A stretch of 64,000 bases of DNA, taken from NCBI GenBank assembly GCA_035532495.1, contig DATKQX010000062.1, positions 47,261 to 111,260 on the forward strand. Reading direction: 5' to 3'. Source of the DNA: Candidatus Saccharimonadales bacterium (GTDB lineage: Bacteria > Chloroflexota > Dormibacteria > Aeolococcales > Aeolococcaceae). The number at the start of each line of letters is the position of its first letter. The stretch's first letter is position 1. The notes beneath the pieces are model-generated. The model was not told where the DNA came from. It was given only the letters and a program-made list of their open reading frames with translations, and ran no database searches. This document shows positions 50,700-64,000 of this stretch, piece after piece. The translations under genes were made by a program, and so were the position numbers.

Positions 50700-50741
50700 A
50701 TCCGCATCAGATTACGCGCGAGTGGCTGATAGGCTTCGTCG

Positions 50742-51623: not shown

Positions 51624-51662
51624 GTACGCGCACTGGGGATTCGCTCTGAACGCACGTACGAC

Positions 51663-51893
51663 ATGCATCGGGGGATCGGTATGAAAGGCAGCCGCCCACT
51701 CGCGCTCGCGCTCGTGGTCCTCGCCGTGATCTTCGCCATCGCTGCCGTTTTCTTCTTCACGGTGAAGACGACCTTCCTGACCACTGGCACGCATCCGGCG
51801 GTCCACTGGAAGCACGCGATCGTCTTCGCCGTGCTCGCCGTCCTGTCGCTGGTCGCCGCCAACTTCGCGAGGCCGAAGGCAGCCGTCAGGTAG
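51663..51893 (+). CDS. small two-TM membrane protein
   Basis: Two hydrophobic helices. Start is ATG 51663 or 51681. No family recognised. Confidence 0.4.
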   Translation: MHRGIGMKGSRPLALALVVLAVIFAIAAVFFFTVKTTFLTTGTHPAVHWKHAIVFAVLAVLSLVAANFARPKAAVR

Positions 51894-51899
51894 GCGACG

Positions 51900-52400
51900 G
51901 TGCCGGCGATGCCGATCACGCCACGCAGCACGGTCGCCGTCTACCGGCGCGCATTTCAGGACACTCGGCGCGAGCGGCTGTTCCTGTCGTCCGTGTCATT
52001 TTTCGCAACGTTCGCGGCGGCCCGGACGATCACCCATGCGATCCGCGGCGGCGTCGGTCCGTTTCACGACCTGACGGCGGGCGGCAGGCATCTCCATCAC
52101 CTCGTCTTCGGGATCGCCGGGCTTCTGGGAAGCGGCTACCTGTGGTTGATCCACGTGGAGCAGGACCGCACAGGTCAGGGCGATGACGCGCTCGCGAAAT
52201 GCAACGCCGTGCTGTACGGCGGTGCATCGGCACTGACACTCGATGAGTTCGCGCTCTGGCTCGACCTCGCGGACGTGTACTGGACCAAGCAGGGACGCGC
52301 CAGCCTCGACGCAGTGATGCTGTTCGGCGGCGCGCTCTCGATCGGCCTCTGGGGACAACCGTTTTTCAAAGAACTCATCAAGGAAGTCCGCCATATCTGA
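51900..52400 (+). CDS. hypothetical membrane protein
   Basis: GTG start. 3-4 hydrophobic segments and protein-like composition. The antisense ORF is Arg-rich. Confidence 0.5.
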   Translation: MPAMPITPRSTVAVYRRAFQDTRRERLFLSSVSFFATFAAARTITHAIRGGVGPFHDLTAGGRHLHHLVFGIAGLLGSGYLWLIHVEQDRTGQGDDALAKCNAVLYGGASALTLDEFALWLDLADVYWTKQGRASLDAVMLFGGALSIGLWGQPFFKELIKEVRHI

Positions 52401-52481
52401 CCACGACCACGTTCGGAGCCGCGCGCTCGCTGCTCGGAGCGCTGCTCTGCGTGACGGCGCTCGTGCTTCGGCGGCACGCGC

Positions 52482-54065
52482 TCACCATGAGTCCACGTAT
52501 CGCGGCCGCCGCGCTTCGCGCGACGTCGCACTCCGCTCGTCGTCGGGACGCAGGATCACTGCCGCAACCAGCGCGCGCGTCTCCGCCGGGTCGATCACAT
52601 CGTCGATCTCGAAGTAGGTGGCGGTGTTGATCGCCGCACCTCTCGCGTACGACTCCGCAACCATCGCCTCGTAGGTCGACTGCCGCTCGTCTGCGTCGAC
52701 GATCGCTTCCAGCTCCTTGCGATAGGCGAGCTTCACCGCTCCTTCGAGGCCCATGCCTCCGAATTCGCCAGTTGGCCATGCCACGGTCATCAGCGGTGCG
52801 CGAAAGCTTCCGCCGGCCATGGCCTGCGCGCCGAGCCCGTACCCTTTGCGCAGCACCACGGTCATGAATGGCACAGTCAGCGCTGCGCCGGCGAGGAACA
52901 ACCGGCTCGCGTGACGCACGAGCGCGGAGCGCTCCGCGTCGGGGCCGACCATGATGCCGGGCGTGTCACACAGGAAGAGGACTGGCAGCGAGAATGCCTC
53001 GCAGAGCTGAAGAAAGCGCGCCGCCTTGTCGGCGCAGTCGCTCGTGATCGCGCCCGCCAGGTGTATCGGATTGTTGGCGACGATCCCCATGGGGCGCCCC
53101 TCGATGTGCGCGAGCGCCGTCACCATGCCACGCGCGAAACCCGCGCGCAACTCGAGCATGGAGCCGGTATCTGCGATCAGATCGAGCGCGCGATGGACGT
53201 CGTAAGCGCGCCGCCGGTTCTCGGGGACGACGTCGCGCAACCCCATCTGGTCCGGCGCTTCCCATGTTGCGATCGATCCCTGAAAGAACGCGATCGACTG
53301 ACGCGCGAGGCGAACCGCATCGGCCTCATCTGTTGCGGCGACATCGATGACTCCGTTGCGCACCTGCATATCGAACGGCCCGACATCATCTGCGTCGACG
53401 AGCCCGAGACCACCGCCTTCGATCATGGCGGGGCCGCCCATGCCGATGCTGGCGTCCGGTGTCGCGATGACGAGGTCGCAGCAGCCGAGGAGCAGCGCAT
53501 TGCCGGCGAAGCACCGGCCGGAGGCGATCCCAATACGCGGGACGACCCCCGAGAGTCGCGCCCAGAGCGCGAACGCCATGACGTCAAGGCCCGCGACCAT
53601 CGCGTTATCGGTATCACCGGGTCGCCCGCCGCCGCCTTCGGCGAAGAGGACGACCGGCAACCGTCTGCGTTCGATGACATCGAAGAGCCGGTCCTTCTTG
53701 CGATGGCCCATGACTCCCTGCGTCCCCGCAAGCACTGTGTAGTCGTACGAGAGCACCGCGCAGTCCGCACGATCGGCGCCGACGAGTGCGCCATTGACGC
53801 GCGCGGTGCCGCCGATGAGTCCGTCGGCGGGCGTGCGCCGTATCAAATCGTCGACGGTCCGACGTCCCCGCTGCGCCGCGATCGCCAGGCCGCCGTACTC
53901 GACGAACGATCCGACGTCGCAGAGGGCGGCGAGGTTCTCCCGAGCCGTGCGCCGGCCGGCGGCGTGACGCGACGCTGCAACGTCAGCGCGATTCGCATCG
54001 CCGGTCATCCGGCGGCGGCGCACCGCCTCGTCGAGGTCGGTCCGTGTGGTCTCGGAGTCAGGCAT
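52482..54065 (-). CDS. acyl-CoA carboxylase carboxyltransferase subunit (PccB/AccD-like)
   Basis: ATG 54065 (MPDSETTRTDLDEA...). Carboxyl-transferase patterns are GTQGVMGHRK, FAEGGGGRPGD, GPAMIEGGGLG and PGIMVGP. The upstream 122 aa of the track ORF are discarded. Confidence 0.85.
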   Translation of the reverse strand: MPDSETTRTDLDEAVRRRRMTGDANRADVAASRHAAGRRTARENLAALCDVGSFVEYGGLAIAAQRGRRTVDDLIRRTPADGLIGGTARVNGALVGADRADCAVLSYDYTVLAGTQGVMGHRKKDRLFDVIERRRLPVVLFAEGGGGRPGDTDNAMVAGLDVMAFALWARLSGVVPRIGIASGRCFAGNALLLGCCDLVIATPDASIGMGGPAMIEGGGLGLVDADDVGPFDMQVRNGVIDVAATDEADAVRLARQSIAFFQGSIATWEAPDQMGLRDVVPENRRRAYDVHRALDLIADTGSMLELRAGFARGMVTALAHIEGRPMGIVANNPIHLAGAITSDCADKAARFLQLCEAFSLPVLFLCDTPGIMVGPDAERSALVRHASRLFLAGAALTVPFMTVVLRKGYGLGAQAMAGGSFRAPLMTVAWPTGEFGGMGLEGAVKLAYRKELEAIVDADERQSTYEAMVAESYARGAAINTATYFEIDDVIDPAETRALVAAVILRPDDERSATSREARRPRYVDSW

Positions 54066-54118
54066 CCGCGGCGAGCTTAGTCCAGGTGCCCACGCGGCAC
54101 CAGCCCGACAACCAACCC

Positions 54119-54778
54119 TCAGCGGACGCCGGATCGACGCGACGGACGTTCCCCGCTCGGGAGGAACGTGAAGAGGCGAACGTCCGGTTCGAACGCGCGC
54201 GGCGAAACGGTGAGACGAGCCGCGCCCACAGCGGCGGTGGTCTCGGGAATGGCGACGAACGCGAGCTCCGAGAATCCCGCCGCCTCGAACCACCGGCGAA
54301 TCGTGGGAGTGAGGTCCGGCTCGAACGTTCCCCGCGTCCAGATGACCGTGGCGCCCGGAGCGCACAGGGTGGGCAACCGATTCACGGTGTCCTCGATGTC
54401 CTCGTCGGTGACATTGCCGAAGACACCGCACACCAACAGGATGTCAGCAGGAGCGACGCCCGCATACGCGCTCGTGAGGGACGCGTCGCCGTCGACGACC
54501 TCGATGGCGGGGGAGATGCCTGCCGCGCGCTCGCGCCCGTGTGCGGCAAGGTCTGTGTCGAGCTCGACCAGGCGCCCGATCACGTCGCTGCCGCGCGGAT
54601 GGTCCTCGAGCACGCCGAGCACGTCGCGACCATCTCCGGCGCACATGCTGATGACACGAATCTCGCCGGGTGGGCAAGCGTCCAACGCCGTGCGAATCAG
54701 GTCCTGCACGACGGCGAGACGCCGCGCCAACGGCGAACCCGGCCGGTACCCCTCGTGCCACTCAACCCACTCGCTCAT
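54119..54778 (-). CDS. class I SAM-dependent methyltransferase
   Basis: Motif I-like VISMCAGDGRD, LVELD and LLVCGVFGN. Assignment is moderate. Confidence 0.55.
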   Translation of the reverse strand: MSEWVEWHEGYRPGSPLARRLAVVQDLIRTALDACPPGEIRVISMCAGDGRDVLGVLEDHPRGSDVIGRLVELDTDLAAHGRERAAGISPAIEVVDGDASLTSAYAGVAPADILLVCGVFGNVTDEDIEDTVNRLPTLCAPGATVIWTRGTFEPDLTPTIRRWFEAAGFSELAFVAIPETTAAVGAARLTVSPRAFEPDVRLFTFLPSGERPSRRSGVR

Positions 54779-54886
54779 CGCAAAAGCCTACAAAACGACG
54801 CCCGGCTCGGCTAGGGTTCGCACCGTCGATCATTGGCGAGGTGAGGTAGGAACCGTGGACGGCACTGCTGTGACGACGGAGTCCCC

Positions 54887-56152
54887 ATGACCGCTCGGTC
54901 GGTCCTCACGACCCCAGCGCTCAGTGTCGAGCCGGGCTCAGAGGCCGTCGCGCAGCTCACCATCCGCAATACCGGCAGCGTCGTCGACCACTTCCACGTG
55001 CAGGTGCTCGGTGACGCGGCTCGCTGGGCGACGGTCACGCCAGAGACTCTGCCGCTCTTCCCCGACGGTGAAGGGGTGGTCAGCATCTCGTTCCGCCCGG
55101 CACGCGTCTCGGCGGCTCGTGCGGGAGCGACTCCGTTCGGCATCAAGGTGACCTCGGAAGTCGATCCGTCGGACACCAGTGTCGAGGAGGGCTCGCTCCA
55201 GATCGGGGCGTTCACCGAACTGGCCGGCGAGCTCGTTCCCCTGATCTCGCACGGCAGCCGCACCGGTAAGCATCAGCTGGCGTGCGACAACAAGGGCAAC
55301 ACGCCGCTCACGCTCGCGTTCGGCGGCGTCGACCAGGAGGAGGCGCTGCGGTTCGCATTCGATCCGACGAGCGTGGTCGCCGAACCCGGGACGGCGACCA
55401 TCGTCACGGTACGAGCGCATCCGCGAAAGCGGTTCCTGACAGGGACGGCCAAGACCCACCGTTTCCAGACGATCATCCAGCCGCGCGAGGCGCCGCCGGT
55501 GACCGTGGACGGGTCGATGGTGCAGACCCCGATCCTGCCAACGTGGCTGCCGAAGGCGCTCGCCGCATTGGTGGTGCTCGCCATCGCGGCAGTCGTGCTC
55601 TGGTTGACGGTGCTGAATCCCGCAATCAAGTCAACAGCGACGACCGCCGCCAACAACGCACTCTCGGCGGCGGGCATCAAGCCCGGTGGCGGCGGTGGCG
55701 GTGGCGGCGGGAGCCCAACGCCGACCCCGTCGGGCTCCACGGTAACCCCACCGCCCGGGAGCACGGGCGGCGGACCTGCGAGCGGCAGGCTGACGGTGCG
55801 CGCCGGCGCCGGCAACACGCCGCAATGCCCGGGCAACAACGCCGGACAGTTCAACGTTCCAAACGGGAACACGTTCTCGCTCACCGACCTCGTCTTCCAG
55901 AACCCGAACGGCGACACGGGCATCCTCACGCTGAGCCGTGGCTGCGGAAACGGGAGCGTGCTCTTCCAGGAGCAGCTGAGTAACTTCCGCGACCTCGACT
56001 TTCACTTCGTGAACCCGTTCACGTTCGCGTCGGGCCAGGGGATGGTCCTGCAGCTCCAGTGCACCGCTCCGGGGCCGCCACCGCCTGCCACGGCGAACGG
56101 TCAGTGCTCCGACGCCATGGTGTGGTCGGGGTCGCTGAAGCCGAACAGCTGA
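54887..56152 (+). CDS. bitopic membrane protein: two N-terminal Ig-like (CARDB-type) repeats, TM helix, Gly/Pro/Thr linker, Cys-containing C-terminal domain
   Basis: No signal peptide. Repeats LSVEPGSEAVAQLTIRNTGSVVDHFHVQV and VVAEPGTATIVTVRAHP. TM helix LPKALAALVVLAIAAVVLWLTVL, then GGGGGGGGSPTPTPSGS. GGAG RBS 6 nt upstream of the ATG. Confidence 0.7.
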   Translation: MTARSVLTTPALSVEPGSEAVAQLTIRNTGSVVDHFHVQVLGDAARWATVTPETLPLFPDGEGVVSISFRPARVSAARAGATPFGIKVTSEVDPSDTSVEEGSLQIGAFTELAGELVPLISHGSRTGKHQLACDNKGNTPLTLAFGGVDQEEALRFAFDPTSVVAEPGTATIVTVRAHPRKRFLTGTAKTHRFQTIIQPREAPPVTVDGSMVQTPILPTWLPKALAALVVLAIAAVVLWLTVLNPAIKSTATTAANNALSAAGIKPGGGGGGGGGSPTPTPSGSTVTPPPGSTGGGPASGRLTVRAGAGNTPQCPGNNAGQFNVPNGNTFSLTDLVFQNPNGDTGILTLSRGCGNGSVLFQEQLSNFRDLDFHFVNPFTFASGQGMVLQLQCTAPGPPPPATANGQCSDAMVWSGSLKPNS

Positions 56153-56160
56153 GGTCGAGT

Positions 56161-56844
56161 TCAGCCCTTTCGGCGCGTCGTGTGCGTTACCGCGGGGCCT
56201 GATGCGCCGGCCGGAGCAAGCGCTTCGCGACGACGTTCGTCGGCGATCGAGGTGGGAACGACTTCGGCGGCACCGTTGGGCGCGGCCACGGTGATGCGGC
56301 GCTCGCGTACCGGCGTGGCGACAGTCGCCGGCACCGGGCGTGGGAGTGGCGCAGTCACCACCAGGTCGAGCGCGGGCCGCGGTGCGATGCCCAGTCCCGT
56401 CCAGAGATCCGACGGCGCGTCCTCGCCGGGACTCGGCAACGCGATGGTGAGAAACACGGGCAGCCCCTCGTCGAGGAGATCGCCGCTGATGTGCTCCGCA
56501 GGGATGGCCTGCTCGTCGGCGAGCGCCGTCAGCAGCGACGACAGCAACCGGTGCTCATCGGCGACATTGGCGGCCCATGCGGTGACGAGGTATCGCAGCC
56601 GATAGCGGTGGAGCGGCGGCCGGCGTCCGACTACCCGCCCCTCATCGTTGCGAACGTCCTCCCAGTCGTTCTGGCGCCGGCTCACGTCCTCGCGAATCTC
56701 CCAGAGGTGAGCGTTGACGACGCTTCCCGAGACGTGATCGTGCCACTGTTGCGTGGGCGAGTCGAAGACGACATCCACGTCGGAGCCGTGGAGCGCGGTC
56801 GCGCGCAGCAGCGAGCGCAGCGACGCGTCGACGTCGGCGATCAT
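56161..56844 (-). CDS. DUF4255 (Pvc16/Afp16-like) CIS tail terminator/cap protein
   Basis: ATG 56844. MIADVDASLRSLL...VDVVFDSP...VNAHLWEIRED...YRLRYLVTAWA matches the DUF4255 N-terminal pattern. It is divergent from the sheath gene. Confidence 0.7.
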   Translation of the reverse strand: MIADVDASLRSLLRATALHGSDVDVVFDSPTQQWHDHVSGSVVNAHLWEIREDVSRRQNDWEDVRNDEGRVVGRRPPLHRYRLRYLVTAWAANVADEHRLLSSLLTALADEQAIPAEHISGDLLDEGLPVFLTIALPSPGEDAPSDLWTGLGIAPRPALDLVVTAPLPRPVPATVATPVRERRITVAAPNGAAEVVPTSIADERRREALAPAGASGPAVTHTTRRKG

Positions 56845-56886
56845 CCATCTGAGGCTGGCGCGCAGCGCGACGTGCCGCAACGGCAC

Positions 56887-56922
56887 AAGGTGCAGCCGGA
56901 AGGGCGCGCCGGGCTGCACCTT
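56887..56922. repeat. 11-bp inverted repeat AAGGTGCAGCC-n14-GGCTGCACCTT in the divergent cap/sheath promoter region
   Basis: Read directly. Arms are 56887-56897 and 56912-56922. Confidence 0.8.
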
Positions 56923-57029
56923 CGGGCAGACGCGTGTTCCCGGACGCCGGCCCCTGCGTGCCTCGCGGATCGACCGGGCCGGTGCGAAGCTCGACACACC
57001 TACGCGTTCGAGTGGTGAGGAGACTGCGC

Positions 57030-58559
57030 ATGCCAAGCTATCTGTCGCCCGGCGTCTATGTTCAGGAGGTGTCGTCGGGTTCGAAACCCATCGAGGGTGT
57101 CGGCACCGCGGTCGCCGCGTTCGTCGGCCTCACCGAGAAAGGCCCGGCCAACACGCCGACTCTCGTCACCAACTGGACGCAGTTCAACACGATGTTCGGC
57201 GACTTCGTCGAGGGTTCGTATCTCGCGCACGCGGTGTACGGATACTTCCTCAACGGCGGTGGATCGGCGTACGTCGTGCGCATCGGTTCCGACGGCGACG
57301 CGGCGCAGCCGAGCGCGAACGCGGAGCTGGCCGGCAGGGGCGAGCCCGGCCGTCCCGTGTATCGCGTGACTGCCGCTGAAGGCGGTCCCGCGGGCGACGA
57401 CATCAGCGTCGAGATCGGAGAACCGGGAGAGCCCGGGGAAGACACGTTCAAGGTGTCGGTCTCGAAGGGCGGCAAGGTCGAGGAAACATTCGACAACGTC
57501 AGCGCGAAGCGCGGTCCCACCAACGCCGTGACCGTCGTCAAGGCTCGCTCGAAGCTCATCCGGCTCGAGGAGATCGGGGGTGGCGGGACCATGACGGTTC
57601 CCGAGAAGGCCAACGTCAAGCTCAGCGGCGGCACCGCGGTCACCTCCGTGCACGTCACCGCTGACGACTACGTCGGCAACTCCGCCGACCGCACCGGCTT
57701 TGCGGGCCTCGAAGCCGTCGACGAAGTGACCATGCTGAGCGTCCCGGACGTGATGGCCGCCTATCAGCGCGGCATCATCGATCTCGAGGCTGTGCAGGCG
57801 GTGCAGCTCGCGATGATCGCCCACTGCGAGCTGATGGGCGATCGTGTCGCCATCCTCGACGCGCCGCCCTCGCTGAACGCGCAGCAGGTCAAGGAATGGC
57901 GCATGGACAAGGCCGGCTACGACTCGAAGTACGCAGCGCTGTACTGGCCCTGGATCAAGGTCTTTGATCCCATCAAGGGCCAGGGCATGATGATTCCGCC
58001 GAGCGGGCACATCGCCGGCATCTGGGCGCGCAACGACGATACGCGTGGCGTGCACAAGGCGCCCGCGAACGAGGTCGTCCGCGGCGCGATCGCGCTCGAG
58101 CTCCAGATCACCAAGGGTGAGCATGATCAGCTCAATCCCTCGGGCATCAACTGCATCCGCGCGTTCCCCGGTCGTGGCGTCCGTGTCTGGGGTGCGCGCA
58201 CCATCTCGAGTGACCCGGAGTGGCGGTACCTCAACGTTCGCCGGCTCTTCAACTTCGTCGAGGAGTCGATTCTCGAGGGCACGCAGTGGGTCGTGTTCGA
58301 GCCCAACGATCCGCGCCTCTGGGACGCGGTCAAGCGCAACGTCTCCGCGTTTCTGCGCAGGGTCTGGCGTGACGGCGCGCTCTTCGGCCTCACGCCCGCC
58401 GAGGCGTTCTTCGTCAAATGTGACGCCGAGAACAACACCCAGGACACGATCGACATCGGTCAGCTGATCATCGATGTGGGCATCGCTCCCGTGAAACCCG
58501 CCGAATTCGTCGTGTTCCGCATCGCACAGTTCGCCGGCGGCGCAGCCGTCAGCGAGTGA
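57030..58559 (+). CDS. contractile tail sheath protein
   Basis: ATG 57030 with GAGGAG RBS. N-terminus MPSYLSPGVYVQEV, then IPPSGHIAGIWARNDDTRGVHKAPAN and NCIRAFPGRGVRVWGARTIS, typical of the phage/CIS sheath family. Confidence 0.9.
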   Translation: MPSYLSPGVYVQEVSSGSKPIEGVGTAVAAFVGLTEKGPANTPTLVTNWTQFNTMFGDFVEGSYLAHAVYGYFLNGGGSAYVVRIGSDGDAAQPSANAELAGRGEPGRPVYRVTAAEGGPAGDDISVEIGEPGEPGEDTFKVSVSKGGKVEETFDNVSAKRGPTNAVTVVKARSKLIRLEEIGGGGTMTVPEKANVKLSGGTAVTSVHVTADDYVGNSADRTGFAGLEAVDEVTMLSVPDVMAAYQRGIIDLEAVQAVQLAMIAHCELMGDRVAILDAPPSLNAQQVKEWRMDKAGYDSKYAALYWPWIKVFDPIKGQGMMIPPSGHIAGIWARNDDTRGVHKAPANEVVRGAIALELQITKGEHDQLNPSGINCIRAFPGRGVRVWGARTISSDPEWRYLNVRRLFNFVEESILEGTQWVVFEPNDPRLWDAVKRNVSAFLRRVWRDGALFGLTPAEAFFVKCDAENNTQDTIDIGQLIIDVGIAPVKPAEFVVFRIAQFAGGAAVSE

Positions 58560-58570
58560 GGGGTTAAGAA

Positions 58571-59035
58571 ATGCCAGCTGGTCTTGGTCCGAGCATGCCC
58601 AACGACGCCATCTCGGCGGCGCGGTTCTCCATCACCGTCGACGGCTACGAGATCGCGCAATTCTCGGAGCTCACCGGAATCACCACCGAGGTCGAGGTCA
58701 TCGACTTCATGGAGAACGGTTCCAGTGGCGCGAACATCCTCAAGAAGCTTCCCGGCAAGCGCAAGCCCCCGACGATCACGCTCCGGCGAGGCAAGAACAC
58801 GTCGATGGAGCTGTGGGCGTGGCACGAGTCGGTGATGCACGGCGACATCGTCGGCGCACGCAAGAGCGGGTCCATCGTCATGTACGGGTACGACGGCTCT
58901 CCGGTTGCGCGCTACCACTTCCATGACGGGTGGCCCGCGAAGATCGCGATCAGTCCTCTGAAGGCCGGCTCCAGTGAGGTCCTGATGGAGGAGGTCACGA
59001 TCGTCTGCGAGTCGCTCGAGCGGGTGGCTCCGTGA
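58571..59035 (+). CDS. CIS tail tube protein (T4 gp19-like), paralogue 1
   Basis: FSITVDGYEIAQFSELTGI...ITLRRG...W...V...GWPAKI...L.A..SEVLMEEVTI pattern of the gp19-like tube family. Confidence 0.85.
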   Translation: MPAGLGPSMPNDAISAARFSITVDGYEIAQFSELTGITTEVEVIDFMENGSSGANILKKLPGKRKPPTITLRRGKNTSMELWAWHESVMHGDIVGARKSGSIVMYGYDGSPVARYHFHDGWPAKIAISPLKAGSSEVLMEEVTIVCESLERVAP

Positions 59036-59442
59036 GCCTCGCGGCACGGGACCTGGTCGCGGTTCGTCCCGCGCTGACCACCGAGTTTCCGTTCGTGCTG
59101 CCGCGCGGCTACGTCGACCGCAAGGGCGTCGTGCATCGCGACGGCGTCATGCGACTTGCGACGGCGCGCGACGAGATCGGACCGCAGAGCGATCCGCGCG
59201 TTCGCCAGAACGCGGCGTACATGACGGTGTTGCTGCTGGAGCGCACCGTCACGCGTCTCGGCACGCTGAGCGAGGTGGACTCGTACGTCATCGAAGGGCT
59301 GTTCGCGTCGGACCTCGCGTTTCTGCAGGACCTCTACCGACGCGTCAACCAGGACGGTCACACCGAGGCGTTCGTGAGCTGTCCCGCGTGCCACCACGAG
59401 TTCACCGTCGATATAGCGGGTGACCGACCGGGGGAAGCATGA
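59032..59442 (+). CDS. CIS-associated protein with C-terminal zinc-ribbon-like CPACHHEF (possible assembly factor)
   Basis: The start overlaps the tube stop (GTGA). It sits where tail assembly chaperones lie in phage-tail-like loci. No motif-level family assignment. Confidence 0.55.
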   Translation: MSLAARDLVAVRPALTTEFPFVLPRGYVDRKGVVHRDGVMRLATARDEIGPQSDPRVRQNAAYMTVLLLERTVTRLGTLSEVDSYVIEGLFASDLAFLQDLYRRVNQDGHTEAFVSCPACHHEFTVDIAGDRPGEA

Positions 59443-59603
59443 CGTACGCGGTCGACCAGCTCTTCGAGGAGGTCGCGTACGTCGCTTACTACTTCCACTG
59501 GGAACTCGACACGATCCTGGATCTGCCGCACTCCCAGCGTCTGCGCTTCATCGAAGAGATCGGCCGTATCCACCGGCAGATGGGCGAGACGGGTGAGTTC
59601 TGA
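59439..59603 (+). CDS. 54-aa CIS-associated small protein (DUF6760-like)
   Basis: Not in the track (shorter than 60 aa). ATGA overlap upstream and TGATG overlap downstream. Translation is MTYAVDQLFEEVAYVAYYFHWELDTILDLPHSQRLRFIEEIGRIHRQMGETGEF. Family name is from memory. Confidence 0.6.
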   Translation: MTYAVDQLFEEVAYVAYYFHWELDTILDLPHSQRLRFIEEIGRIHRQMGETGEF

Positions 59604-61237
59604 TGCGCATGCCATGGCAGCGGCGAAGCGCCGGTCGCGCTGAGCGCGAGACCGCCACTGCGCCAGAGGCGCTGCCGCACGCGTGGCGCTCGGCGCCGCC
59701 GCTTGCGGGGAGCGCCGGTGGTGCACCCCCACTCACGGCACGATCGGTCGAGATAGCCGACGCGTTGAGCAGGCGCCTGCGCTCGACGCGTGAGCGCCCG
59801 CCGCTGCTCCATCGCGCGGGGCTTCCCGACCCGGCGGCGCCGGGGACGGTGCGCGGTATCGCCATTGCCTCGCCGCGCGCGGTGCAGCGGACGCGATCGG
59901 CGTCGGGCGCCGCGCTCAGCGACAGTGAGACTGCGTTCGACACTTCGCTAGAGACTGCGGTGCCGATCGCCACGGCGCCTCCGGTCAAGGCGCGGCGGAG
60001 CACGGAGCGCTCACTCACCTCAGTTGACCCCGCGGCGCTGATCTTTCCAGCCGGCGAGACCGCGCAGCCGGCGCACGAGGAACCCGAGTCGAGCGACACC
60101 ACCGGTGCCGAGGCGTCGCCACTCTCACTGGGCCTGCCACCAGGTCTGCAGCGAACAGTGGTCCGGCGCCGGATGGGCGCACCGGGCGCACGTCCCCTCG
60201 GGCTCCAGGCTCCACTCGACGATGCCGCAACGCAGGCGGCAGCGGTGCGCAGCGCTGAGTTCGAACGCGCTGCGCATCAGGCTTCAACCGAGCCGGCGCC
60301 GCACGCCGTTGCGTCGGAGGTCGGTCGCCTGCATCGCGCCGACGTCGGCAACGTTCGCGTCCATCGCGGCGAGGAAGCAGAGCGCGTGGCAGCGGATGCG
60401 CACGCGCGAGCGGTGACCCGCGGTGGCGAGGTGTTCATCCCTGATGCGGCCGGACGTCTCGACACCGGCAGCGGTCGTGGCCTGCTCGCGCATGAGCTCA
60501 CCCACGTGATTCAGCAGCGGCGCCTCGGGACGTCCGTGCCGCTCGAGCATTCGCCCGCCGGCCGCCGCCTCGAGTCTGAAGCCTCGATAACCGAGCGGCA
60601 TATCCGTGGCGATGCCGGAGCGCCGGCGCCCACGCCTGCCGCCGCGCAACCGGCTGCGCCGGCGCCGGCCGCGGCGCCACCCGCGTCCCCCGCGGGAGAC
60701 GACGACGCGAAGGCAACCGCTCGCGAACTACAGGACGAAATGGTCGCTTCGGGGCACGCCTTTCGCATGCCCGACGGTTCGATCGTCTTCCCAGGGTCCG
60801 GTATGCATCTTCCCCAGCAGCGACCGTCGCAGACGCAGCCTGCTGTTGCGATACAGCGCGCCCCCGACGACCCCGTCCCGATGCCGGCTGATGCGGCGGC
60901 GCCGGGAGACGGCAGCGTCGACACGCCGCCGCCCGATACCGGGTATCTGCCCATGCCGGACATGACGGCCGCAGCCGGCGCACCGGTGCCTGCGTCGAGT
61001 GCTCCGGCTCCCATACAGACCTGGTCCGCGCCTGTGGCTGCTGTCGCACCGTCAGCCCCGGCACCGGCACCAGGAGCGGCGCCCGCACCGATAGCACCGG
61101 CGCCGGCAGCCGAGCCGGCACCACCCATAGACCTCGACGACCTTGCGCGCCGGGTCTACGGGCAGGTGCGAACCCAGTTGCGATCCGAATTGCTGATCGA
61201 CCGCGAGCGCGCGGGACTGTTGACGGATTTTCGATGA
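59603..61237 (+). CDS. DUF4157 ('eCIS core domain') protein with HExxH motif
   Basis: VRVHRGEEAERVAADAHARAVTRGGEVFI...LLAHELTHVIQQ matches the DUF4157 core. It has long Ala/Pro/Arg-rich flanks and a conserved-looking C-terminal IDLDDLARRVYGQVRTQLRSELLIDRERAG. Confidence 0.8.
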   Translation: MRMPWQRRSAGRAERETATAPEALPHAWRSAPPLAGSAGGAPPLTARSVEIADALSRRLRSTRERPPLLHRAGLPDPAAPGTVRGIAIASPRAVQRTRSASGAALSDSETAFDTSLETAVPIATAPPVKARRSTERSLTSVDPAALIFPAGETAQPAHEEPESSDTTGAEASPLSLGLPPGLQRTVVRRRMGAPGARPLGLQAPLDDAATQAAAVRSAEFERAAHQASTEPAPHAVASEVGRLHRADVGNVRVHRGEEAERVAADAHARAVTRGGEVFIPDAAGRLDTGSGRGLLAHELTHVIQQRRLGTSVPLEHSPAGRRLESEASITERHIRGDAGAPAPTPAAAQPAAPAPAAAPPASPAGDDDAKATARELQDEMVASGHAFRMPDGSIVFPGSGMHLPQQRPSQTQPAVAIQRAPDDPVPMPADAAAPGDGSVDTPPPDTGYLPMPDMTAAAGAPVPASSAPAPIQTWSAPVAAVAPSAPAPAPGAAPAPIAPAPAAEPAPPIDLDDLARRVYGQVRTQLRSELLIDRERAGLLTDFR

Positions 61238-61246
61238 GGAGATGGC

Positions 61247-61687
61247 ATGGCTGACGACACGACTTTCGGACTCGCGCTTCGATTCACCGTCGATGTCGGC
61301 AACACCAGCCTCGGGACGTGGTCGAAGTGCGAGGGCATCGAGATGCACTTCGACACCGTGAGATACCAGGAGGGTGGGGCTCCCGGAGCGACGTGGAATT
61401 ACACCCACTACGCCACGGGCCGTGCCAACTACGTCCCGATCAAGCTGACCCGTGCGGTGACCCCGCAGGCGTCGACGGCACTCTTGAAGTGGCTGTCGAC
61501 TCAAGCGAGCTCGCCCGCTTCGCCGCAGCCCGCGACCATCACGCTGCTTGACACGAACGGACAGCAGGTGCAGCAGTGGACCTTCCAGGAAGTGTTCCCC
61601 ACCAAGTACGTCGGTCCGCGCCTCGATGCCGCCCAGGCGCAGGTCGCGACGGAGGAGCTCGAGCTCACCCATCAGGGATTCATGTAA
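61247..61687 (+). CDS. CIS tail tube protein (gp19-like), paralogue 2
   Basis: FTVDVGNTSLGTWSKCEGI...IKLTR...W...FPTKYVGPRLDA...VATEELEL. Confidence 0.8.
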   Translation: MADDTTFGLALRFTVDVGNTSLGTWSKCEGIEMHFDTVRYQEGGAPGATWNYTHYATGRANYVPIKLTRAVTPQASTALLKWLSTQASSPASPQPATITLLDTNGQQVQQWTFQEVFPTKYVGPRLDAAQAQVATEELELTHQGFM

Positions 61688-61719
61688 TGCCGGCCGCGTC
61701 CACCCGGAGGTTCTGACAA

Positions 61720-62154
61720 ATGCCGCCCGGATCGACCGCGCCGCGTGGTCTCGCCGCGCGCTTCCAGGTGACCATCGACGGCCAGAATCTGGGCGCCTGG
61801 TCGAAGTGCACGGGGCTCAGCGTCGATTTCCAGCATGAGGTCTACAAGGAACTTGGCAACAATTCATTCGTGCATCTCCTTCCCATGGGAGCGAAGTACG
61901 AGCCGATCACGCTCGAGCGGGCATGCACGGCAGCGGAGTCGGTTCGCCTCCAGGGGTGGCTCGCGAGCATGGTGACGCAGCCCAAGAAGGGAACGGCCAG
62001 CATCACGCTTCACGATGCCGCGCAGCAGGAAGTCATCACCTGGACGCTCTCCGGTGTGTTCCCCGCGAAGTGGACGGGCCCGCACCTCGAGGGGAAGTCC
62101 ACCGAGGTGGCATTCGAGGCCCTCGTGCTTGCGCACGAAGGCTTCCTGGACTGA
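61720..62154 (+). CDS. CIS tail tube protein (gp19-like), paralogue 3
   Basis: FQVTIDGQNLGAWSKCTGL...ITLER...W...FPAKWTGPHLEG...VAFEALVL. Confidence 0.8.
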   Translation: MPPGSTAPRGLAARFQVTIDGQNLGAWSKCTGLSVDFQHEVYKELGNNSFVHLLPMGAKYEPITLERACTAAESVRLQGWLASMVTQPKKGTASITLHDAAQQEVITWTLSGVFPAKWTGPHLEGKSTEVAFEALVLAHEGFLD

Positions 62155-62158
62155 CGCG

Positions 62159-62878
62159 ATGGCAAGCGTGTCGGTGACGGTGGGATTGCAGCGGGCGATG
62201 CTGATCGGACCTGGGCCGCCCGTTGTGCTTATGCTCAACCCAACGACCCTGAAGCTCGTCCTGTCATCGACATGGCATGCCCCGAAGAATCGCAGCGGCG
62301 GGGCGGCGCAGCCTTCGGCTGCGACGACCGGGAAGGCACTCGGCAATGTTCCGGCCGGGTACTCATCACCGCAGTACACCGGTGGCCAGCCGGCAAAGTT
62401 GTCGATGACCGTCTGGTTCGATCAATCCTTCGAACCCGATGGCGACATCACTGACGAAGTCAACCAACTCCAGTACTGGACGTATCCGACCGAAGAGATC
62501 GTGCCCGGCGTACAGAATCCGCCAATGGTGACGTTTACATGGGGCAGCCTCACCTTCGACGGAAACATTTCGTCGCTGACGATCACCTACAAGCTGTTCG
62601 GCACGAACGGGAGGCCGGTCCGTGCCCAGGCTGATATCACCATCAGCGAGAATCCCCTGGAAATCCCGGGCACCAACCCGACATCCGGGGGCATCTCCGG
62701 GCGCCGCGTGCACGTGGTTTCGGCGGGCGACTCGCTGCACTCGATCGCCTACGCCGAGTACGGCAGCGCTGGACTCTGGCGCGTGCTCGCCGAGGCCAAC
62801 GCGATTGACGACCCGCTGCGAGTGGGCCCCGGCACGACGTTGCTCATACCGCCCGCTCCGTCGTCGGGCACCTCCTGA
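62159..62878 (+). CDS. tube-initiator-like protein with C-terminal LysM domain (Afp7/Pvc7-like)
   Basis: ATG 62159 inside track ORF 62015..62878. Tube-like N-terminal domain, then LysM HVVSAGDSLHSIAYAEYGSAGLWRVLAEANAIDDPLRVGPGTTLLIP. Confidence 0.75.
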   Translation: MASVSVTVGLQRAMLIGPGPPVVLMLNPTTLKLVLSSTWHAPKNRSGGAAQPSAATTGKALGNVPAGYSSPQYTGGQPAKLSMTVWFDQSFEPDGDITDEVNQLQYWTYPTEEIVPGVQNPPMVTFTWGSLTFDGNISSLTITYKLFGTNGRPVRAQADITISENPLEIPGTNPTSGGISGRRVHVVSAGDSLHSIAYAEYGSAGLWRVLAEANAIDDPLRVGPGTTLLIPPAPSSGTS

Positions 62879-64000
62879 TGCCGACGACCATGGCGACGCG
62901 CTGGCCGGATGTCGAGATCGACGGCGCCGCACTCGCCGATCGCATCCGCCCGCGACTCGCCGAGGTTGTCGTCGACAACCATCTGCACCTTCCTGACATG
63001 TTCGCGTTGGTTTTCGACGACCCTCAGCACACCCTGCTCGCCGACACGGGTGTCAAGGTGGGCTCGACGGTGAAGATCGGGGTGGCGAGCCCCGGTGCGG
63101 GCGCCTTGGATGCGCTCATCAGCGGCGAGGTGACGGCGCTGGAGGCTGACTACGACGGTGGCTGGGACCGCACCGTCGTCCGGGGGTATGACCACTCGCA
63201 TCGTCTCCATCGAGGCAGGCACACCAGCACATATCAGAACGTGAAAGTGTCGGATGTGGCACAAACGGTTGCGAGCCGCGCCGGGCTGACGGTAGGGAGC
63301 ATCGACGACAGCGGGTCAGTGCTCCCCTTCGTGTCACAAGTGAACACCACCGACTGGGACTTCCTCAAGGCGCGTGCTCGTGAGCTGGGCTTCGAGGTCG
63401 GTGTCACCGATGGCACGTTCTATTTCCGCAAACCGGTGCAGTCGGCAACGGGTCCACAGCCGGGCGACGCGGACTCGCAGGGAGAGACGCAGTTGGTCTA
63501 CGGCCGCGATCTCCTCAGCTTCCGGCCACGGGTCAGCTCGTCCGCGCAGGTCACTCAGATCAGCGTCCGATCGTGGGATCCAGCCACCAAGGCGACACTG
63601 GTCGGCTCGGCCGACGCGGCAGCCTCCCACGCCGACCTGGCTGAGGATCCTGCGAGCCTTGCCCAGATCTTCGGTTCGCCGGAGTACCTCGTGCACAACC
63701 GCCCGCTCACCTCGCAGGCGGACGTGGATGACACCGCGAAGGCTGTCGCCGAGCATATCGGCAGCACGTTCGCGGAGGCCCAGGGGGCGGTCACCGGCAA
63801 CCCCAAGCTCCACGCCGGGAGCGCGGTGAGCATCGCCCAGGTCTCCAACACGTTCTCGGGCAAATACACCCTGACCCGGACGCGACACGTCTTCGACGAC
63901 GACGGTTACCGGACTGAGTTCGAGATCAGCGGGATGCAGGATCGCTCCACCCTGGGGCTGGTGTCGCTCGGCGCGACCAACGATGCCACGGCGGGGGGCG
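62878..64000 (+). CDS. VgrG/phage late control gene D-like spike/hub protein (partial, continues right of the window)
   Basis: Not in the track (open to the window edge). ATG 62878 overlaps the preceding stop (TGATG). Manual translation gives MPTTMATRWPDVEIDGAALADRIRPRLAEVVVDNHLHLPDMFALVFDDP...VVRGYDHSHRLHRG...DWDFLKARARELGFEV...GKYTLTRTRHVFDDDGYRTEFEISG, typical of the gpD/VgrG family. Confidence 0.8.
   Translation, partial: MPTTMATRWPDVEIDGAALADRIRPRLAEVVVDNHLHLPDMFALVFDDPQHTLLADTGVKVGSTVKIGVASPGAGALDALISGEVTALEADYDGGWDRTVVRGYDHSHRLHRGRHTSTYQNVKVSDVAQTVASRAGLTVGSIDDSGSVLPFVSQVNTTDWDFLKARARELGFEVGVTDGTFYFRKPVQSATGPQPGDADSQGETQLVYGRDLLSFRPRVSSSAQVTQISVRSWDPATKATLVGSADAAASHADLAEDPASLAQIFGSPEYLVHNRPLTSQADVDDTAKAVAEHIGSTFAEAQGAVTGNPKLHAGSAVSIAQVSNTFSGKYTLTRTRHVFDDDGYRTEFEISGMQDRSTLGLVSLGATNDATAGG

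What the first reader, a model, noticed from the sequence alone, without database searches (positions are those of the whole stretch)
56161..64000. Chromosomal phage-tail-like contractile injection system (CIS/eCIS) locus, truncated by the window edge
The genes present are, in order:
- divergent DUF4255 cap
- sheath
- gp19-like tube
- Zn-ribbon protein
- 54-aa protein
- DUF4157 HExxH protein
- two more tube paralogues
- LysM tube-initiator
- gpD/VgrG-like spike (partial)

Nearly all are joined by 1- or 4-nt overlaps. No capsid, portal, terminase, integrase or lysis gene occurs in the 56 kb to the left, and the locus is embedded among housekeeping genes ~40 kb from oriC. This argues for a domesticated CIS rather than a prophage. 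The gene order, with DUF4157 in the middle, resembles the actinobacterial/cytoplasmic CIS type rather than the Afp/PVC order as I recall it. Baseplate (gp25/gp6-like), PAAR, AAA+ ATPase, fibre and effector genes should lie beyond 64000. Host lineage, cargo, and whether the particle is released or acts intracellularly are all open.
Basis: partly seen in the sequence, partly recalled or inferred. Interest (0 to 1): 0.8.

Follow-up and report, generated by a model that had tools for sequence, protein, structure and literature searches.

The report
Streptomyces-type contractile injection system, Dormibacterota
This is an intact phage-tail-like "contractile injection system" gene cluster of the same kind that kills its own cell from inside in Streptomyces, here in the chromosome of an uncultured soil or peat bacterium (Candidatus Dormibacterota); it is a new host for a known machine rather than a new machine.

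Summary
The locus is a lineage IId contractile injection system (CIS), the Streptomyces coelicolor CISSc type. The sheath matches the solved CISSc sheath over its full length (E 7.6e-203). Cap, Cis11 and Cis12 match the CISSc cryo-EM chains.

The host is not an actinobacterium. It is a Candidatus Dormibacterota bacterium, and the flanks are syntenic with Dormibacterota MAGs.

A 99.9%-identical metagenome contig continues past 64000 with the rest of VgrG, PAAR, gp25, Cis11 and Cis12. A homologue of the membrane protein CisA follows, which CISSc needs for firing. No fibre gene and no head, terminase, integrase or lysis gene follows.

The AAA+ ATPase (Cis15) is missing from the 64 kb window and from 10 kb downstream in two relatives. 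It lies next to the cap gene in 46 related loci.

The DUF4157 protein sits in the tape-measure position and ends in a C-terminal motif shared across about 60 loci. An upstream 421-aa bitopic membrane protein (54887-56152) belongs to an uncharacterised, CIS-linked family.

All genes are under purifying selection. Verdict: new member of a known kind, most likely a cytoplasmic, self-directed CIS. Moderate interest.

The parts
54887..56152 (+). It is a CIS-associated accessory protein. It has two N-terminal Ig/ASH-like domains, a TM helix, a Gly/Pro-rich linker, and a C-terminal jelly-roll domain with a conserved Cys pair.
   Evidence: Pfam Cep192_D3 and HYDIN Ig. AF2 pLDDT 87; C-terminal domain pLDDT 88. 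Family members occur in about 35 of 85 related CIS loci. Three of three independently sampled members lie within 10 kb of CIS genes. dN/dS is 0.08-0.12.
56161..56844 (-). Cis16 cap / tail terminator (Pvc16_N = DUF4255), 227 aa, divergent from the main operon.
   Evidence: Pfam E 1.8e-33. Matches CISSc Cis16 chain 9gts_0A at E 9.1e-37 over residues 1-222.
56845..57029 (.). 185-bp divergent intergenic region between cis16 and cis2, presumed to hold the promoters. It has conserved blocks, including TTCGGGCA and the ribosome-binding region GGTGAGGAGACTGCGCATG.
   Evidence: Alignment with five Dormibacterota loci. No sigma-70 consensus match was found.
57030..58559 (+). Cis2 sheath, 509 aa.
   Evidence: Pfam sheath domains. 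Matches CISSc sheath 8bky/9gtp at E 7.6e-203 over the full length.
58571..59035 (+). Cis1a main tube protein, 154 aa.
   Evidence: Pfam gp19 E 5.7e-29. Its best match among the Streptomyces tube proteins is Cis1a.
59032..59442 (+). 136-aa conserved protein, probably a tail-assembly-chaperone-like factor. By gene order it is the positional equivalent of sco4251. It has a single conserved C-terminal CxxC.
   Evidence: PHROG 508 tail assembly chaperone, E 4.1e-5. It is 62-75% identical across phyla. No Pfam, NCBIfam or PDB hit.
59439..59603 (+). 54-aa DUF6760 protein, translationally coupled to both of its neighbours.
   Evidence: Pfam E 1.2e-12. Present in 80 of 85 loci.
59603..61237 (+). 544-aa protein in the tape-measure position. 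The chain is disordered and rich in Ala/Pro/Arg, with four [VIL]Q[RQ] motifs. It carries an embedded DUF4157/eCIS_core domain (residues 231-307, HELTH) and a conserved C-terminal helix (about residues 510-544).
   Evidence: Pfam E 3e-19. The C-terminal motif is shared by the equivalent ORF in about 60 loci. It shares the VQR repeats and the 'RMPDGS(I/V)VF' motif with the Streptomyces counterpart. HExxH is invariant in 20 loci.
61247..61687 (+). Tube paralogue 2, 146 aa. It is a Cis1b-type duplicate.
   Evidence: Pfam gp19. 40% identical to tube 3, and 26% identical to Streptomyces Cis1b.
61720..62154 (+). Tube paralogue 3, 144 aa. It is the Cis1b-like tube initiator or adaptor ring.
   Evidence: Pfam gp19. 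36% identical to Streptomyces Cis1b, E 1.5e-25.
62159..62878 (+). Cis7 tube initiator with a C-terminal LysM, 239 aa.
   Evidence: Pfam CIS_tube E 4.5e-20 and LysM E 0.0048. NCBIfam LysM E 3.2e-5.
62878..64000 (+). Cis8 VgrG-like spike. The window holds the first 374 of 578 residues.
   Evidence: Pfam Phage_GPD. The full-length protein in L001 matches NCBIfam VgrG_rel at E 2.8e-172.

Best explanation
**What it is.** The locus is an intact, selectively maintained lineage IId (CISSc-type) contractile injection system. It lies in the chromosome of a Candidatus Dormibacterota bacterium, about 40 kb from dnaA.

**Transcription (inferred).** A divergent control region at 56845-57029 is presumed to drive cis16 leftwards and one tightly packed operon rightwards. 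The operon order is:
- cis2 sheath, cis1a tube, a chaperone-like 136-aa gene, and DUF6760;
- the 544-aa DUF4157 protein;
- two cis1b-type tube genes, cis7-LysM and cis8;
- beyond the window: cis10 PAAR, cis9 gp25, cis11, cis12 and a cisA homologue.

**Assembly (inferred from the solved CISSc structure).**
1. The VgrG trimer with its PAAR tip, the Cis7 and Cis1b rings, and gp25/Cis11/Cis12 wedges form the baseplate.
2. The 544-aa protein docks in the hub through its conserved C-terminal helix and lies in the tube lumen, carrying its DUF4157 metallopeptidase-like domain. The 136-aa and 54-aa proteins assist.
3. Cis1a tube and Cis2 sheath polymerise.
4. A Cis16 hexamer caps the particle.

**Action (inferred from Streptomyces genetics and from cryo-ET of lineage IId systems).**
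- The particle stays free in the cytoplasm.
- Under stress it is brought to the cytoplasmic membrane by the bitopic CisA-like protein. That protein has zinc-ribbon and proline-rich cytoplasmic parts, a TM helix and an extracytoplasmic NADase-type glycan-binding domain.
- The particle then fires from inside and kills or lyses the producer cell.

**The upstream 421-aa membrane protein.** It is a second, conserved accessory factor. It is either a membrane effector of the Sco4256-4258 style or a second membrane adaptor or sensor.
For: **Identity of the parts**
- Pfam hits for all structural genes.
- Sheath against CISSc 8bky/9gtp: E 7.6e-203, 678 bits. The next best unnamed structure scores 405 bits or less, and Anabaena tCIS, PVC, Afp and AlgoCIS score 181 bits or less.
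- Cis11 against 9gtp_1K: E 2.7e-226.
- Cis16 against 9gts: E 9e-37.
- Cis12 against 9gtp_E: E 5.7e-36.

**Continuation past 64000**
- Contig L001 is 99.906% identical to window 47030-64000.
- It continues with VgrG, PAAR, gp25, a 649-aa protein (Cis11, no precomputed Pfam hit) and Tail_P2_I.
- A + strand ORF follows, starting MIVCKKCGFNN.

**CisA homologue**
- The full-length relative is 626 aa (L087). It has NCBIfam NADase_discoid at E 7.3e-18.
- It aligns at E 9e-17 with the gene directly after cis12 in a Streptomyces cluster. That is the position of CisA/SCO4242, which is required for firing (PMC12237407).

**Mode of action**
- No fibre or lysis genes lie downstream in two relatives.
- Lineage IId systems in Streptomyces, Roseiflexus and Deinococcota are cytoplasmic by cryo-ET (PMC10066040; PMC12998442).

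**Function retained**
- dN/dS is 0.01-0.32 for all 16 genes against two sister species.

**Host**
- Sheath is 93-97% identical to Dormibacterota MAGs.
- The flanks are syntenic with those MAGs at about 80-84% nt identity.

**544-aa protein**
- Its position is after a chaperone-like gene and before the tube initiators.
- It has the shared C-terminal motif.
- DUF4157 proteins bind the tube initiator or spike in S. lividans and S. davawensis (PMC13277306, PMC11126660).
Against: - There is no expression, imaging or genetic evidence for this organism. Cytoplasmic action is inferred from relatives.
- The AAA+ ATPase Cis15 is required for CISSc-mediated cell death in S. coelicolor (PMC10020575). It was not found in the window or its flanks. 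Either it is encoded elsewhere or this system works differently.
- Equating the downstream gene with CisA rests on a positional orthologue in another Streptomyces genome. It was not compared directly with SCO4242.
- Casu et al. state that CISSc has no typical tape measure. A chain of about 550 aa could not span a 268-nm tube, so a ruler role for the 544-aa protein is doubtful.
- Dormibacterota are not known to be multicellular, so the benefit of self-killing is unclear.
Confidence: 0.6

Rival explanations
1. It is an extracellular CIS (Afp/PVC-like in behaviour). Particles would be released by lysis and would inject the DUF4157 protein into other organisms in soil or peat.
For: - It has the same conserved core as eCIS: Pvc16_N cap, eCIS_core domain, LysM initiator, VgrG and PAAR.
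- DUF4157 is a marker of eCIS toxins in the literature.
- The ISME J paper leaves an eCIS-like role open for Roseiflexus.
Against: - No tail-fibre gene was found. A CisA-like inner-membrane protein sits in the fibre position.
- No holin, endolysin or amidase gene lies nearby.
- The closest solved relative is the cytoplasmic CISSc.
- Lineage IId particles contract on lysis and are unstable outside cells.
Confidence: 0.2
2. It is a membrane-anchored, contact-dependent system that behaves like a T6SS. CisA-like and the 421-aa membrane protein would form a standing anchor, and the particle would fire outward into neighbouring cells.
For: - Two conserved bitopic membrane proteins flank the cluster.
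- Both have extracytoplasmic beta-sandwich domains of a fold class that includes glycan-binding modules.
- Haloarchaeal CIS act in this way (title and abstract).
Against: - There are no TssJLM-like genes and no ClpV. The sheath is not of the TssBC type.
Confidence: 0.12
3. It is a prophage tail remnant or an R-type tailocin.
For: All structural genes have phage-tail homologues: gp19, the sheath, gpD, gp25, baseplate J and P2 gpI.
Against: - It has the Pvc16_N cap and the eCIS_core domain, which mark CIS loci.
- Among the genes scanned in 64 kb plus the flanks there is no head, portal, terminase, integrase, lysis or fibre gene, and the window has no tRNA gene.
- The same chromosomal site is occupied in sister species.
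- Purifying selection acts on every gene.
Confidence: 0.03

Closest known systems
CISSc of Streptomyces coelicolor / S. venezuelae (cytoplasmic CIS, lineage IId; PDB 8bky, 8bl4, 9gtp, 9gts)
   Same: - Full-length homology of the sheath, Cis16, Cis11 and Cis12.
- Same gene order from the sheath to the gene after cis12. This includes the 136-aa protein, DUF6760, the VQR-repeat protein with the same C-terminal motif, Cis1b, Cis7, Cis8, Cis9, Cis11, Cis12 and a CisA-type protein.
- No fibre gene.
   Different: - The host phylum is different.
- The cap gene lies directly next to the sheath gene and is divergent from it.
- There is no Cis15 ATPase nearby.
- A DUF4157 domain is embedded in the tape-measure-position protein.
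- There is an extra Cis1b-type tube paralogue.
- PAAR is present, as in S. venezuelae but not in S. coelicolor.
- No Sco4256-4258 homologue was detected in the Streptomyces loci held here. A different single-TM family, the 421-aa protein, is present instead.
- The CisA-type protein is longer and has a long Pro-rich repeat region.
Roseiflexus / Thermogemmatispora / Deinococcota lineage IId CIS (PMC12998442)
   Same: - Lineage IId outside the Actinomycetota.
- Cytoplasmic particles.
- Chloroflexota-type relatives are the nearest non-Dormibacterota sheaths here, at about 70% identity.
   Different: - That paper reports no close cisA homologue in Roseiflexus. Here a cisA-type gene follows cis12.
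- The Chloroflexota-type loci fetched here keep cis15 next to cis16. This clade does not.
S. davawensis CIS with Tme, and S. lividans SLP with Sle1/Sle2
   Same: - A DUF4157-bearing protein sits immediately upstream of the tube-initiator and spike genes, in the tape-measure position, as defined for tme-like genes.
- DUF4157 proteins bind the tube initiator.
   Different: - The 544-aa protein has no predicted TM helices, coiled coil or nuclease domain. It is much shorter than Tme.
- Its DUF4157 domain is central rather than N-terminal.
- The sheath clusters with CISSc-type sheaths and not, as far as was tested, with the S. davawensis group. No S. davawensis sequence was available.
Afp / PVC / AlgoCIS extracellular CIS
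   Same: The shared core is the cap (Pvc16_N), sheath, gp19 tubes, LysM initiator, VgrG, PAAR, gp25, Afp11 and Afp12.
   Different: - No Afp13 fibre, no typical Afp14 tape measure and no Afp15 ATPase in the locus.
- One sheath gene rather than three.
- Much weaker sequence similarity, 125-177 bits against 678 bits.

Membership tests
CIS/eCIS superfamily (as opposed to a phage tail) | Tail terminator of the Pvc16_N (PF14065) family | tested here: met
   Pfam E 1.8e-33. Matches Cis16 at E 9e-37.
CIS/eCIS superfamily (as opposed to a phage tail) | An AAA+ ATPase (Afp15/Cis15) encoded in the locus. Vladimirov 2023 describes it as 'invariably' present. | tested here: not met
   tblastn with a Streptomyces Cis15 (WHD+AAA) hits 46 related loci. 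It does not hit the 64 kb window, L001-L010 or L087. The rest of the genome could not be searched.
CIS/eCIS superfamily (as opposed to a phage tail) | No head, portal, terminase, integrase or lysis genes adjacent | tested here: met
   Precomputed Pfam hits and my own Pfam scans of genes across 1-64 kb, plus the downstream flanks. Not every small ORF in 1-29 kb was scanned.
Lineage IId / CISSc-type cytoplasmic CIS | Sheath and baseplate proteins closest to CISSc | tested here: met
   Sheath 678 bits to 8bky against 181 bits or less for Anabaena tCIS, PVC, Afp and AlgoCIS. Cis11 E 2.7e-226 and Cis12 E 5.7e-36 to 9gtp. No formal tree against dbeCIS references was built.
Lineage IId / CISSc-type cytoplasmic CIS | Gene order sheath, tube, sco4251-like, DUF6760, VQR-repeat protein, cis1b, cis7, cis8, (cis10), cis9, cis11, cis12 | tested here: met
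   tblastn synteny across 85 loci. Streptomyces locus L088.
Lineage IId / CISSc-type cytoplasmic CIS | No conventional tail fibre (Afp13) and no typical tape measure (Afp14) | tested here: met
   The only genes after cis12 are the CisA-like gene, small ORFs and regulators. The tape-measure-position protein is a disordered Pro/Ala-rich chain with no tape-measure profile hit.
Lineage IId / CISSc-type cytoplasmic CIS | [quoted passage not shown] | tested here: met
   The ORF starts 17 nt after the cis12 stop in L001. The full-length relatives have a Zn ribbon, a TM helix and NADase_discoid. BLASTP E 9e-17 to the post-cis12 gene of Streptomyces. It lies outside the window, and SCO4242 itself was not available for comparison.
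Lineage IId / CISSc-type cytoplasmic CIS | Particles free in the cytoplasm, with firing linked to death of the producer | not testable with these tools
   This needs cryo-ET and genetics. The organism is uncultured.
Tme-type (S. davawensis) CIS group | The largest ORF of the cluster lies just upstream of the baseplate genes, with an N-terminal DUF4157, TM helices or coiled coil, and an effector domain | tested here: inconclusive
   Position and DUF4157 are met. However, the ORF is not the largest in the cluster, DUF4157 is central, and no effector domain hit was found. TM helices and coiled coils were not specifically predicted.
Type VI secretion system | TssB/TssC sheath, TssJLM membrane complex and ClpV | tested here: not met
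   No such Pfam families appear in the window or flanks. There are only weak TssF-like hits for Cis11.
R-type tailocin / prophage tail | Fibre genes, a lysis cassette and phage-type regulators next to the tail genes | tested here: not met
   None were found.

The most novel reading that the evidence does not exclude
This clade may represent an ATPase-independent form of the cytoplasmic CIS.

**The idea.** The DUF4157 'eCIS core' domain normally sits on separate adaptor or effector proteins. Here it has been built into the tape-measure-position protein, which enters the tube lumen by default during assembly. Cis15-dependent loading would then be dispensable, and the ATPase gene was lost.

**Support.** In the loci fetched here, an HExxH domain in that protein and a nearby cis15 tend to exclude each other:

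| | cis15 absent | cis15 present |
|---|---|---|
| HExxH present | about 18 loci | 5 loci |
| HExxH absent | about 7 loci | about 38 loci |

. The classification of ORFs was crude, and the counts are phylogenetically non-independent.

**Consequence.** If true, this would assign a function, cargo or adaptor loading, to the AAA+ ATPase of lineage IId systems. It would also define a minimal self-contained cell-death device with two dedicated membrane partners, the CisA-like protein and the 421-aa Ig-domain protein.
Probability: 0.15. Interest if true: 0.6.

Novelty: new member of a known kind. Interest (0 to 1): 0.4.

Why it matters
**A new host lineage.** Cytoplasmic CIS have been studied in Streptomyces and seen in Chloroflexota and Deinococcota. 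This locus extends the CISSc-type system to Candidatus Dormibacterota, an uncultured soil and peat lineage. No paper in the searched library links that lineage to contractile systems.

**Testable points for the field**
1. A cisA-type gene (zinc ribbons, TM helix, NADase-type glycan-binding domain) follows cis12 well outside the actinomycetes. This suggests that CisA-dependent firing is ancestral to much of lineage IId.
2. A second family of single-pass membrane proteins is tightly linked to these clusters. It has more than 300 members, and all are annotated as hypothetical.
3. The 'missing tape measure' position holds a conserved protein with an invariant C-terminal helix and optional DUF4157.
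4. Some IId clusters, including ones in cultured actinomycetes, lack a nearby Cis15. They offer natural experiments on what the ATPase does.

**Overall.** None of this changes the basic picture of what the locus is.

Tried and rejected
- **Promoters and terminators:** the sigma-70 promoter and intrinsic terminator scans of 54.7-58.7 kb found nothing.
- **RNA genes:** Rfam and tRNA scans of the window found nothing.
- **544-aa and 136-aa proteins:** PDB sequence searches gave no meaningful hit. NCBIfam gave nothing for the cap, the 136-aa, 54-aa or 544-aa proteins.
- **421-aa protein, whole model:** Foldseek gave only generic tandem Ig/ASH matches to Cep192 and HYDIN.
- **421-aa protein, C-terminal domain:** Foldseek gave only weak jelly-roll matches (CBM36, CBM4, BcsB, nucleoplasmin, viral capsids; TM 0.55 or less). 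No function could be assigned.
- **Same-strain contig beyond +4.5 kb:**
  - The exact protein was not a cluster representative.
  - Two relatives, L087 and L092, were used for the right flank instead.
- **dnaA look-up for context:** nothing on record.
- **Ruler function for the 544-aa protein:**
  - The Streptomyces counterpart in locus L088, about 550 aa, is from a species other than S. coelicolor.
  - A chain of that length could not span the 268-nm S. coelicolor particle even when fully extended.
- **Prophage or tailocin:** rejected (see the rival explanations).
- **Homology of the 421-aa protein to Sco4256-4258:**
  - A profile search found no member in the three Streptomyces loci held with upstream flank, L058, L080 and L083.
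- **Unused tool:** the single search of protein representatives was not used.

Full report
**1. Observation**

The ORF map and the sequence around the two starts give a compact cluster.

| Gene | Window coordinates | Strand |
|---|---|---|
| Cap | 56161-56844 | - |
| Intergenic region, 185 bp | 56845-57029 | . |
| Sheath | 57030-58559 | + |
| Tube | 58571-59035 | + |
| 136-aa gene | 59032-59442 | + |
| 54-aa gene | 59439-59603 | + |
| 544-aa gene | 59603-61237 | + |
| Tube paralogue | 61247-61687 | + |
| Tube paralogue | 61720-62154 | + |
| Tube initiator with LysM | 62159-62878 | + |
| Spike gene, running off the window | 62878 onwards | + |

- Pfam confirms Pvc16_N (the former DUF4255), both sheath domains, gp19 three times, DUF6760, eCIS_core (the former DUF4157), CIS_tube with a weak LysM, and Phage_GPD.
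- Four of the nine same-strand junctions are 4- or 1-nt overlaps. The rest are gaps of 4 to 32 nt. 'Nearly all overlap' is therefore an overstatement, though the genes are tightly packed.
- The 'Zn-ribbon' protein has only one conserved CxxC.

**2. Surroundings and host**

*Left of the cluster*
- The origin-region genes are:
  - parA, 4672-5622;
  - yidC, 12692-13981;
  - dnaA, 14859-16367;
  - dnaN, 16626-17741.
- The remaining genes scanned to the left encode transporters, peptidases, regulators, lipid and one-carbon enzymes, two GGDEF-EAL proteins, a GT87 glycosyltransferase, BacA and a carboxyltransferase.
- No head, portal, terminase, integrase or lysis family was seen. There is no tRNA gene in the window.

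*Host*
- A scan of one genome per species returned 583 sheath relatives.
- The best are 93-97% identical and are all Candidatus Dormibacterota MAGs.
- Next, at about 70% identity, come Limnocylindria and other Chloroflexota, and Acidimicrobiia. Actinomycetes, including Streptomyces, are at about 61%.
- The housekeeping flanks are colinear with three of the Dormibacterota MAGs at about 80-84% nt identity.
- The host is therefore a Dormibacterota bacterium, and the cluster sits at a conserved chromosomal site in the clade.

**3. What lies beyond 64000**

Contig L001 carries exactly the window's sheath protein. It is 99.906% identical to window 47030-64000 and continues for 4.5 kb. The continuation encodes:
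- the rest of VgrG (578 aa; NCBIfam VgrG_rel E 2.8e-172);
- a PAAR protein;
- gp25;
- a 649-aa baseplate protein (TIGR02243 E 2e-151);
- a P2-gpI-like protein.

Seventeen nucleotides after the cis12 stop, a + strand ORF starts MIVCKKCGFNN and runs off the held sequence.

In two relatives, L087 and L092, this ORF is 626 and 601 aa. Its parts, in order, are:
- an N-terminal zinc ribbon;
- a long proline-rich repeat region;
- a second zinc ribbon;
- a TM helix;
- a C-terminal NADase-type glycan-binding (discoidin-like) domain, NCBIfam E 7.3e-18.

Behind it lie three small minus-strand genes, a GerE-type regulator and a large MalT/SARP-like regulator. Housekeeping genes follow. There is no fibre, no AAA+ ATPase and no lysis cassette.

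**4. Which CIS**

- The sheath matches the solved S. coelicolor and S. venezuelae CIS sheaths over its full length:
  - E 7.6e-203 and 7.5e-200 for the two CIS sheaths;
  - 678 bits, against 181 bits or less for the Anabaena tCIS, PVC, Afp and AlgoCIS sheaths.
- The 649-aa protein matches Cis11 of the extended CISSc structure at E 2.7e-226.
- The cap matches Cis16 at E 9e-37.
- The gpI-like protein matches the chain I take to be Cis12, the 190-aa 'secreted protein' of 9gtp, at E 5.7e-36.
- CISSc is the first structurally characterised member of lineage IId (PMC12237407).
- Gene order is colinear with a Streptomyces cluster (L088) from the sheath to the gene after cis12.
- From that colinearity I infer the following correspondence to S. 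coelicolor gene numbers. It follows from gene counting, not from a direct comparison.

| This locus | Inferred S. coelicolor equivalent |
|---|---|
| 136-aa protein | sco4251 |
| DUF6760 protein | sco4250 |
| 544-aa protein | sco4249 |
| Gene after cis12 | sco4242 (cisA) |

**5. CisA**

[quoted passage not shown] Its N-terminus is cytoplasmic and largely unstructured.
- It is required for contraction in situ and for cell death, and it is predicted to contact Cis11.
- The Streptomyces gene in that position in L088 has the same build as the Dormibacterota protein. Both have a zinc ribbon, a Pro-rich region, a second zinc ribbon, a TM helix and an NADase_transloc domain.
- It aligns with the Dormibacterota protein at E 9e-17 across the second zinc ribbon, the TM helix and the C-terminal domain.
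- The N-terminal zinc-ribbon signature is found directly after cis12 in more than 20 further loci from Chloroflexota, Acidimicrobiia and actinomycetes.
- The fibre position is therefore occupied by a cisA-type gene in this clade too.

**6. The tape-measure position**

*The 136-aa protein*
- It is the best-conserved small protein of the cluster, 62-75% identical across phyla.
- It weakly matches a phage tail assembly chaperone family, PHROG 508 at E 4e-5.

*The ORF downstream of the 136-aa gene and DUF6760, across the related loci*
- It is 450-1160 aa long and compositionally biased.
- In about 60 loci it ends in the same motif, roughly L..RLY.R.R.RLR.ELL.DRER.G.L.D.R.

*Shared features of the window's 544-aa protein and the Streptomyces counterpart*
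- Repeated [VIL]Q[RQ] motifs.
- An 'RMPDGS(I/V)VF' motif.
- The C-terminal helix.

*The DUF4157 domain*
- The Dormibacterota protein, and about 20 others, carry an additional embedded DUF4157 domain with an invariant AHE.xH..Q motif.
- In loci without it, DUF4157 occurs on separate small proteins.
- Published work shows that DUF4157 proteins bind the tube initiator or spike in S. lividans (Sle2) and S. davawensis (Tme).

*My reading (inference)*
- This is a hub-anchored protein that lies in the tube lumen and brings the DUF4157 module into the particle.
- A classical ruler role is unlikely, because a chain of about 550 residues cannot span a 268-nm tube. This agrees with Casu et al., who find no typical tape measure.

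**7. The missing ATPase**

- A Streptomyces Cis15 (WHD+AAA) finds homologues in 46 related loci, usually next to cis16. One of these is another Dormibacterota MAG, L017.
- It finds nothing in the 64-kb window, in the close clade L001-L010, or in L087.
- Vladimirov et al. call the ATPase invariable in eCIS regions. They show that S. coelicolor without it makes normal particles but loses CIS-dependent cell death.
- Its absence here is the main departure from the family definition. It cannot be called a genome-wide absence with these tools.
- Cis15-less loci also occur in cultured actinomycetes: Actinokineospora, Solihabitans, Micromonospora antibiotica and Kribbella.
- These loci tend to be the ones with DUF4157 embedded in the tape-measure-position protein. 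The association is crude and phylogenetically confounded.

**8. The upstream 421-aa gene (54887-56152)**

*Structure*
- AlphaFold2 with 59 homologues gives a confident model, pLDDT 87.
- Its parts are two N-terminal Ig/ASH-like sandwiches, a long TM helix, a disordered Gly/Pro-rich linker, and a C-terminal eight-stranded jelly roll with a conserved Cys pair.
- There is no signal peptide. This suggests a cytoplasmic N-terminus and an extracytoplasmic C-terminus (inference).
- Fold searches give only generic matches.

*Distribution*
- The family has more than 300 members, and every one that carries a source name is annotated as hypothetical.
- It occurs in about 35 of the 85 related loci, in varying positions and orientations. 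One locus has three tandem paralogues.
- Three members chosen independently of CIS content all lie within 10 kb of sheath, cap or Cis15 genes. All three are next to a divergent GerE regulator gene.

*Interpretation*
- It is a genuine CIS-associated accessory gene.
- Its build is a conserved N-terminal module, one TM helix, and a C-terminal part that is often not conserved. This recalls the Sco4256-4258 effectors of CISSc. Homology could not be tested.

**9. Functional state**

- Against two sister species, all 16 genes have dN/dS of 0.01-0.32 and none is disrupted.
- The 544-aa protein, one Cis1b-type tube, Cis7 and VgrG are markedly more divergent (57-82% aa identity) than their neighbours (about 87-100%). 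This suggests a co-evolving hub-and-cargo module.

**10. Verdict**

- The locus is a new member of lineage IId in a host lineage for which no report was found.
- It most likely acts from the cytoplasm in a CisA-dependent way.
- Three features differ in detail from CISSc and would be worth a specialist's follow-up:
  - there is no nearby Cis15;
  - DUF4157 is fused into the tape-measure-position protein;
  - a second conserved membrane protein is present.
- None of these makes it a new kind of system.

Noticed in passing
window 4672-5622, 12692-13981, 14859-16367, 16626-17741: These are replication-origin neighbourhood genes: parA, yidC, dnaA and dnaN. Three of the four DnaA-box-like matches in the window (one mismatch allowed) lie at 14865, 14887 and 16397, next to dnaA. 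The total count is not above chance (4 matches against 2.0 expected). The cumulative GC skew shows no clear turning point in the window.
   Followed up: partly
window 59603-64000, compared with L006 and L007: Divergence is mosaic within the cluster. The 544-aa protein, tube paralogue 3, Cis7 and VgrG are 57-82% identical to the sister species. The sheath, tube 1, tube 2, PAAR, gp25, Cis11 and Cis12 are about 90-100% identical. This may reflect a co-evolving or recombining hub-and-cargo module.
   Followed up: partly
loci L001-L085 (table): Across related loci, an HExxH/DUF4157 domain inside the tape-measure-position protein and a nearby cis15 ATPase gene tend to be mutually exclusive. The counts are about 18 and 5 loci with HExxH (cis15 absent and present), against about 7 and 38 without it. 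ORF assignment was crude and the loci are not phylogenetically independent.
   Followed up: partly
window 59603-61237; L088 2341-4026: Repeated short [VIL]Q[RQ] motifs are spread along the disordered chain: 4 copies in the window protein and about 10 in the Streptomyces counterpart. There is also a shared 'RMPDGS(I/V)VF' motif. Their role is unknown. They could be binding or processing sites.
   Followed up: no
L087 12462-17231; L092 11849-17873; L089-L091 around 9100-9850: A GerE/LuxR-type regulator of about 210 aa and a large MalT/SARP-like STAND regulator recur near these clusters. The GerE gene lies directly and divergently next to members of the 421-aa family in three unrelated loci. These are candidate cluster regulators. 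Three small conserved minus-strand ORFs of 158, 90 and about 140-150 aa lie between cisA and the regulators in the relatives. The 158-aa ORF has a weak CARDB hit.
   Followed up: no
window 39084-41693 and 41690-43711: Two adjacent large GGDEF-EAL proteins of 869 and 672 aa overlap by 4 nt.
   Followed up: no
window 18045-19520 (-): A 492-aa SMC_N/AAA_23 ATPase ORF lies on the strand opposite to dnaN, where recF is usually found co-oriented. A + strand ORF of similar size overlaps it. Which of the two is the real gene was not resolved.
   Followed up: no
L017 (Dormibacterota MAG MFD00731.bin.1.225): A second, more distant Dormibacterota lineage carries a Chloroflexota-like version of the cluster. 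Its sheath is 71% identical, cis15 sits next to cis16, and the tape-measure-position protein has no DUF4157. The phylum therefore holds at least two cluster variants.
   Followed up: partly
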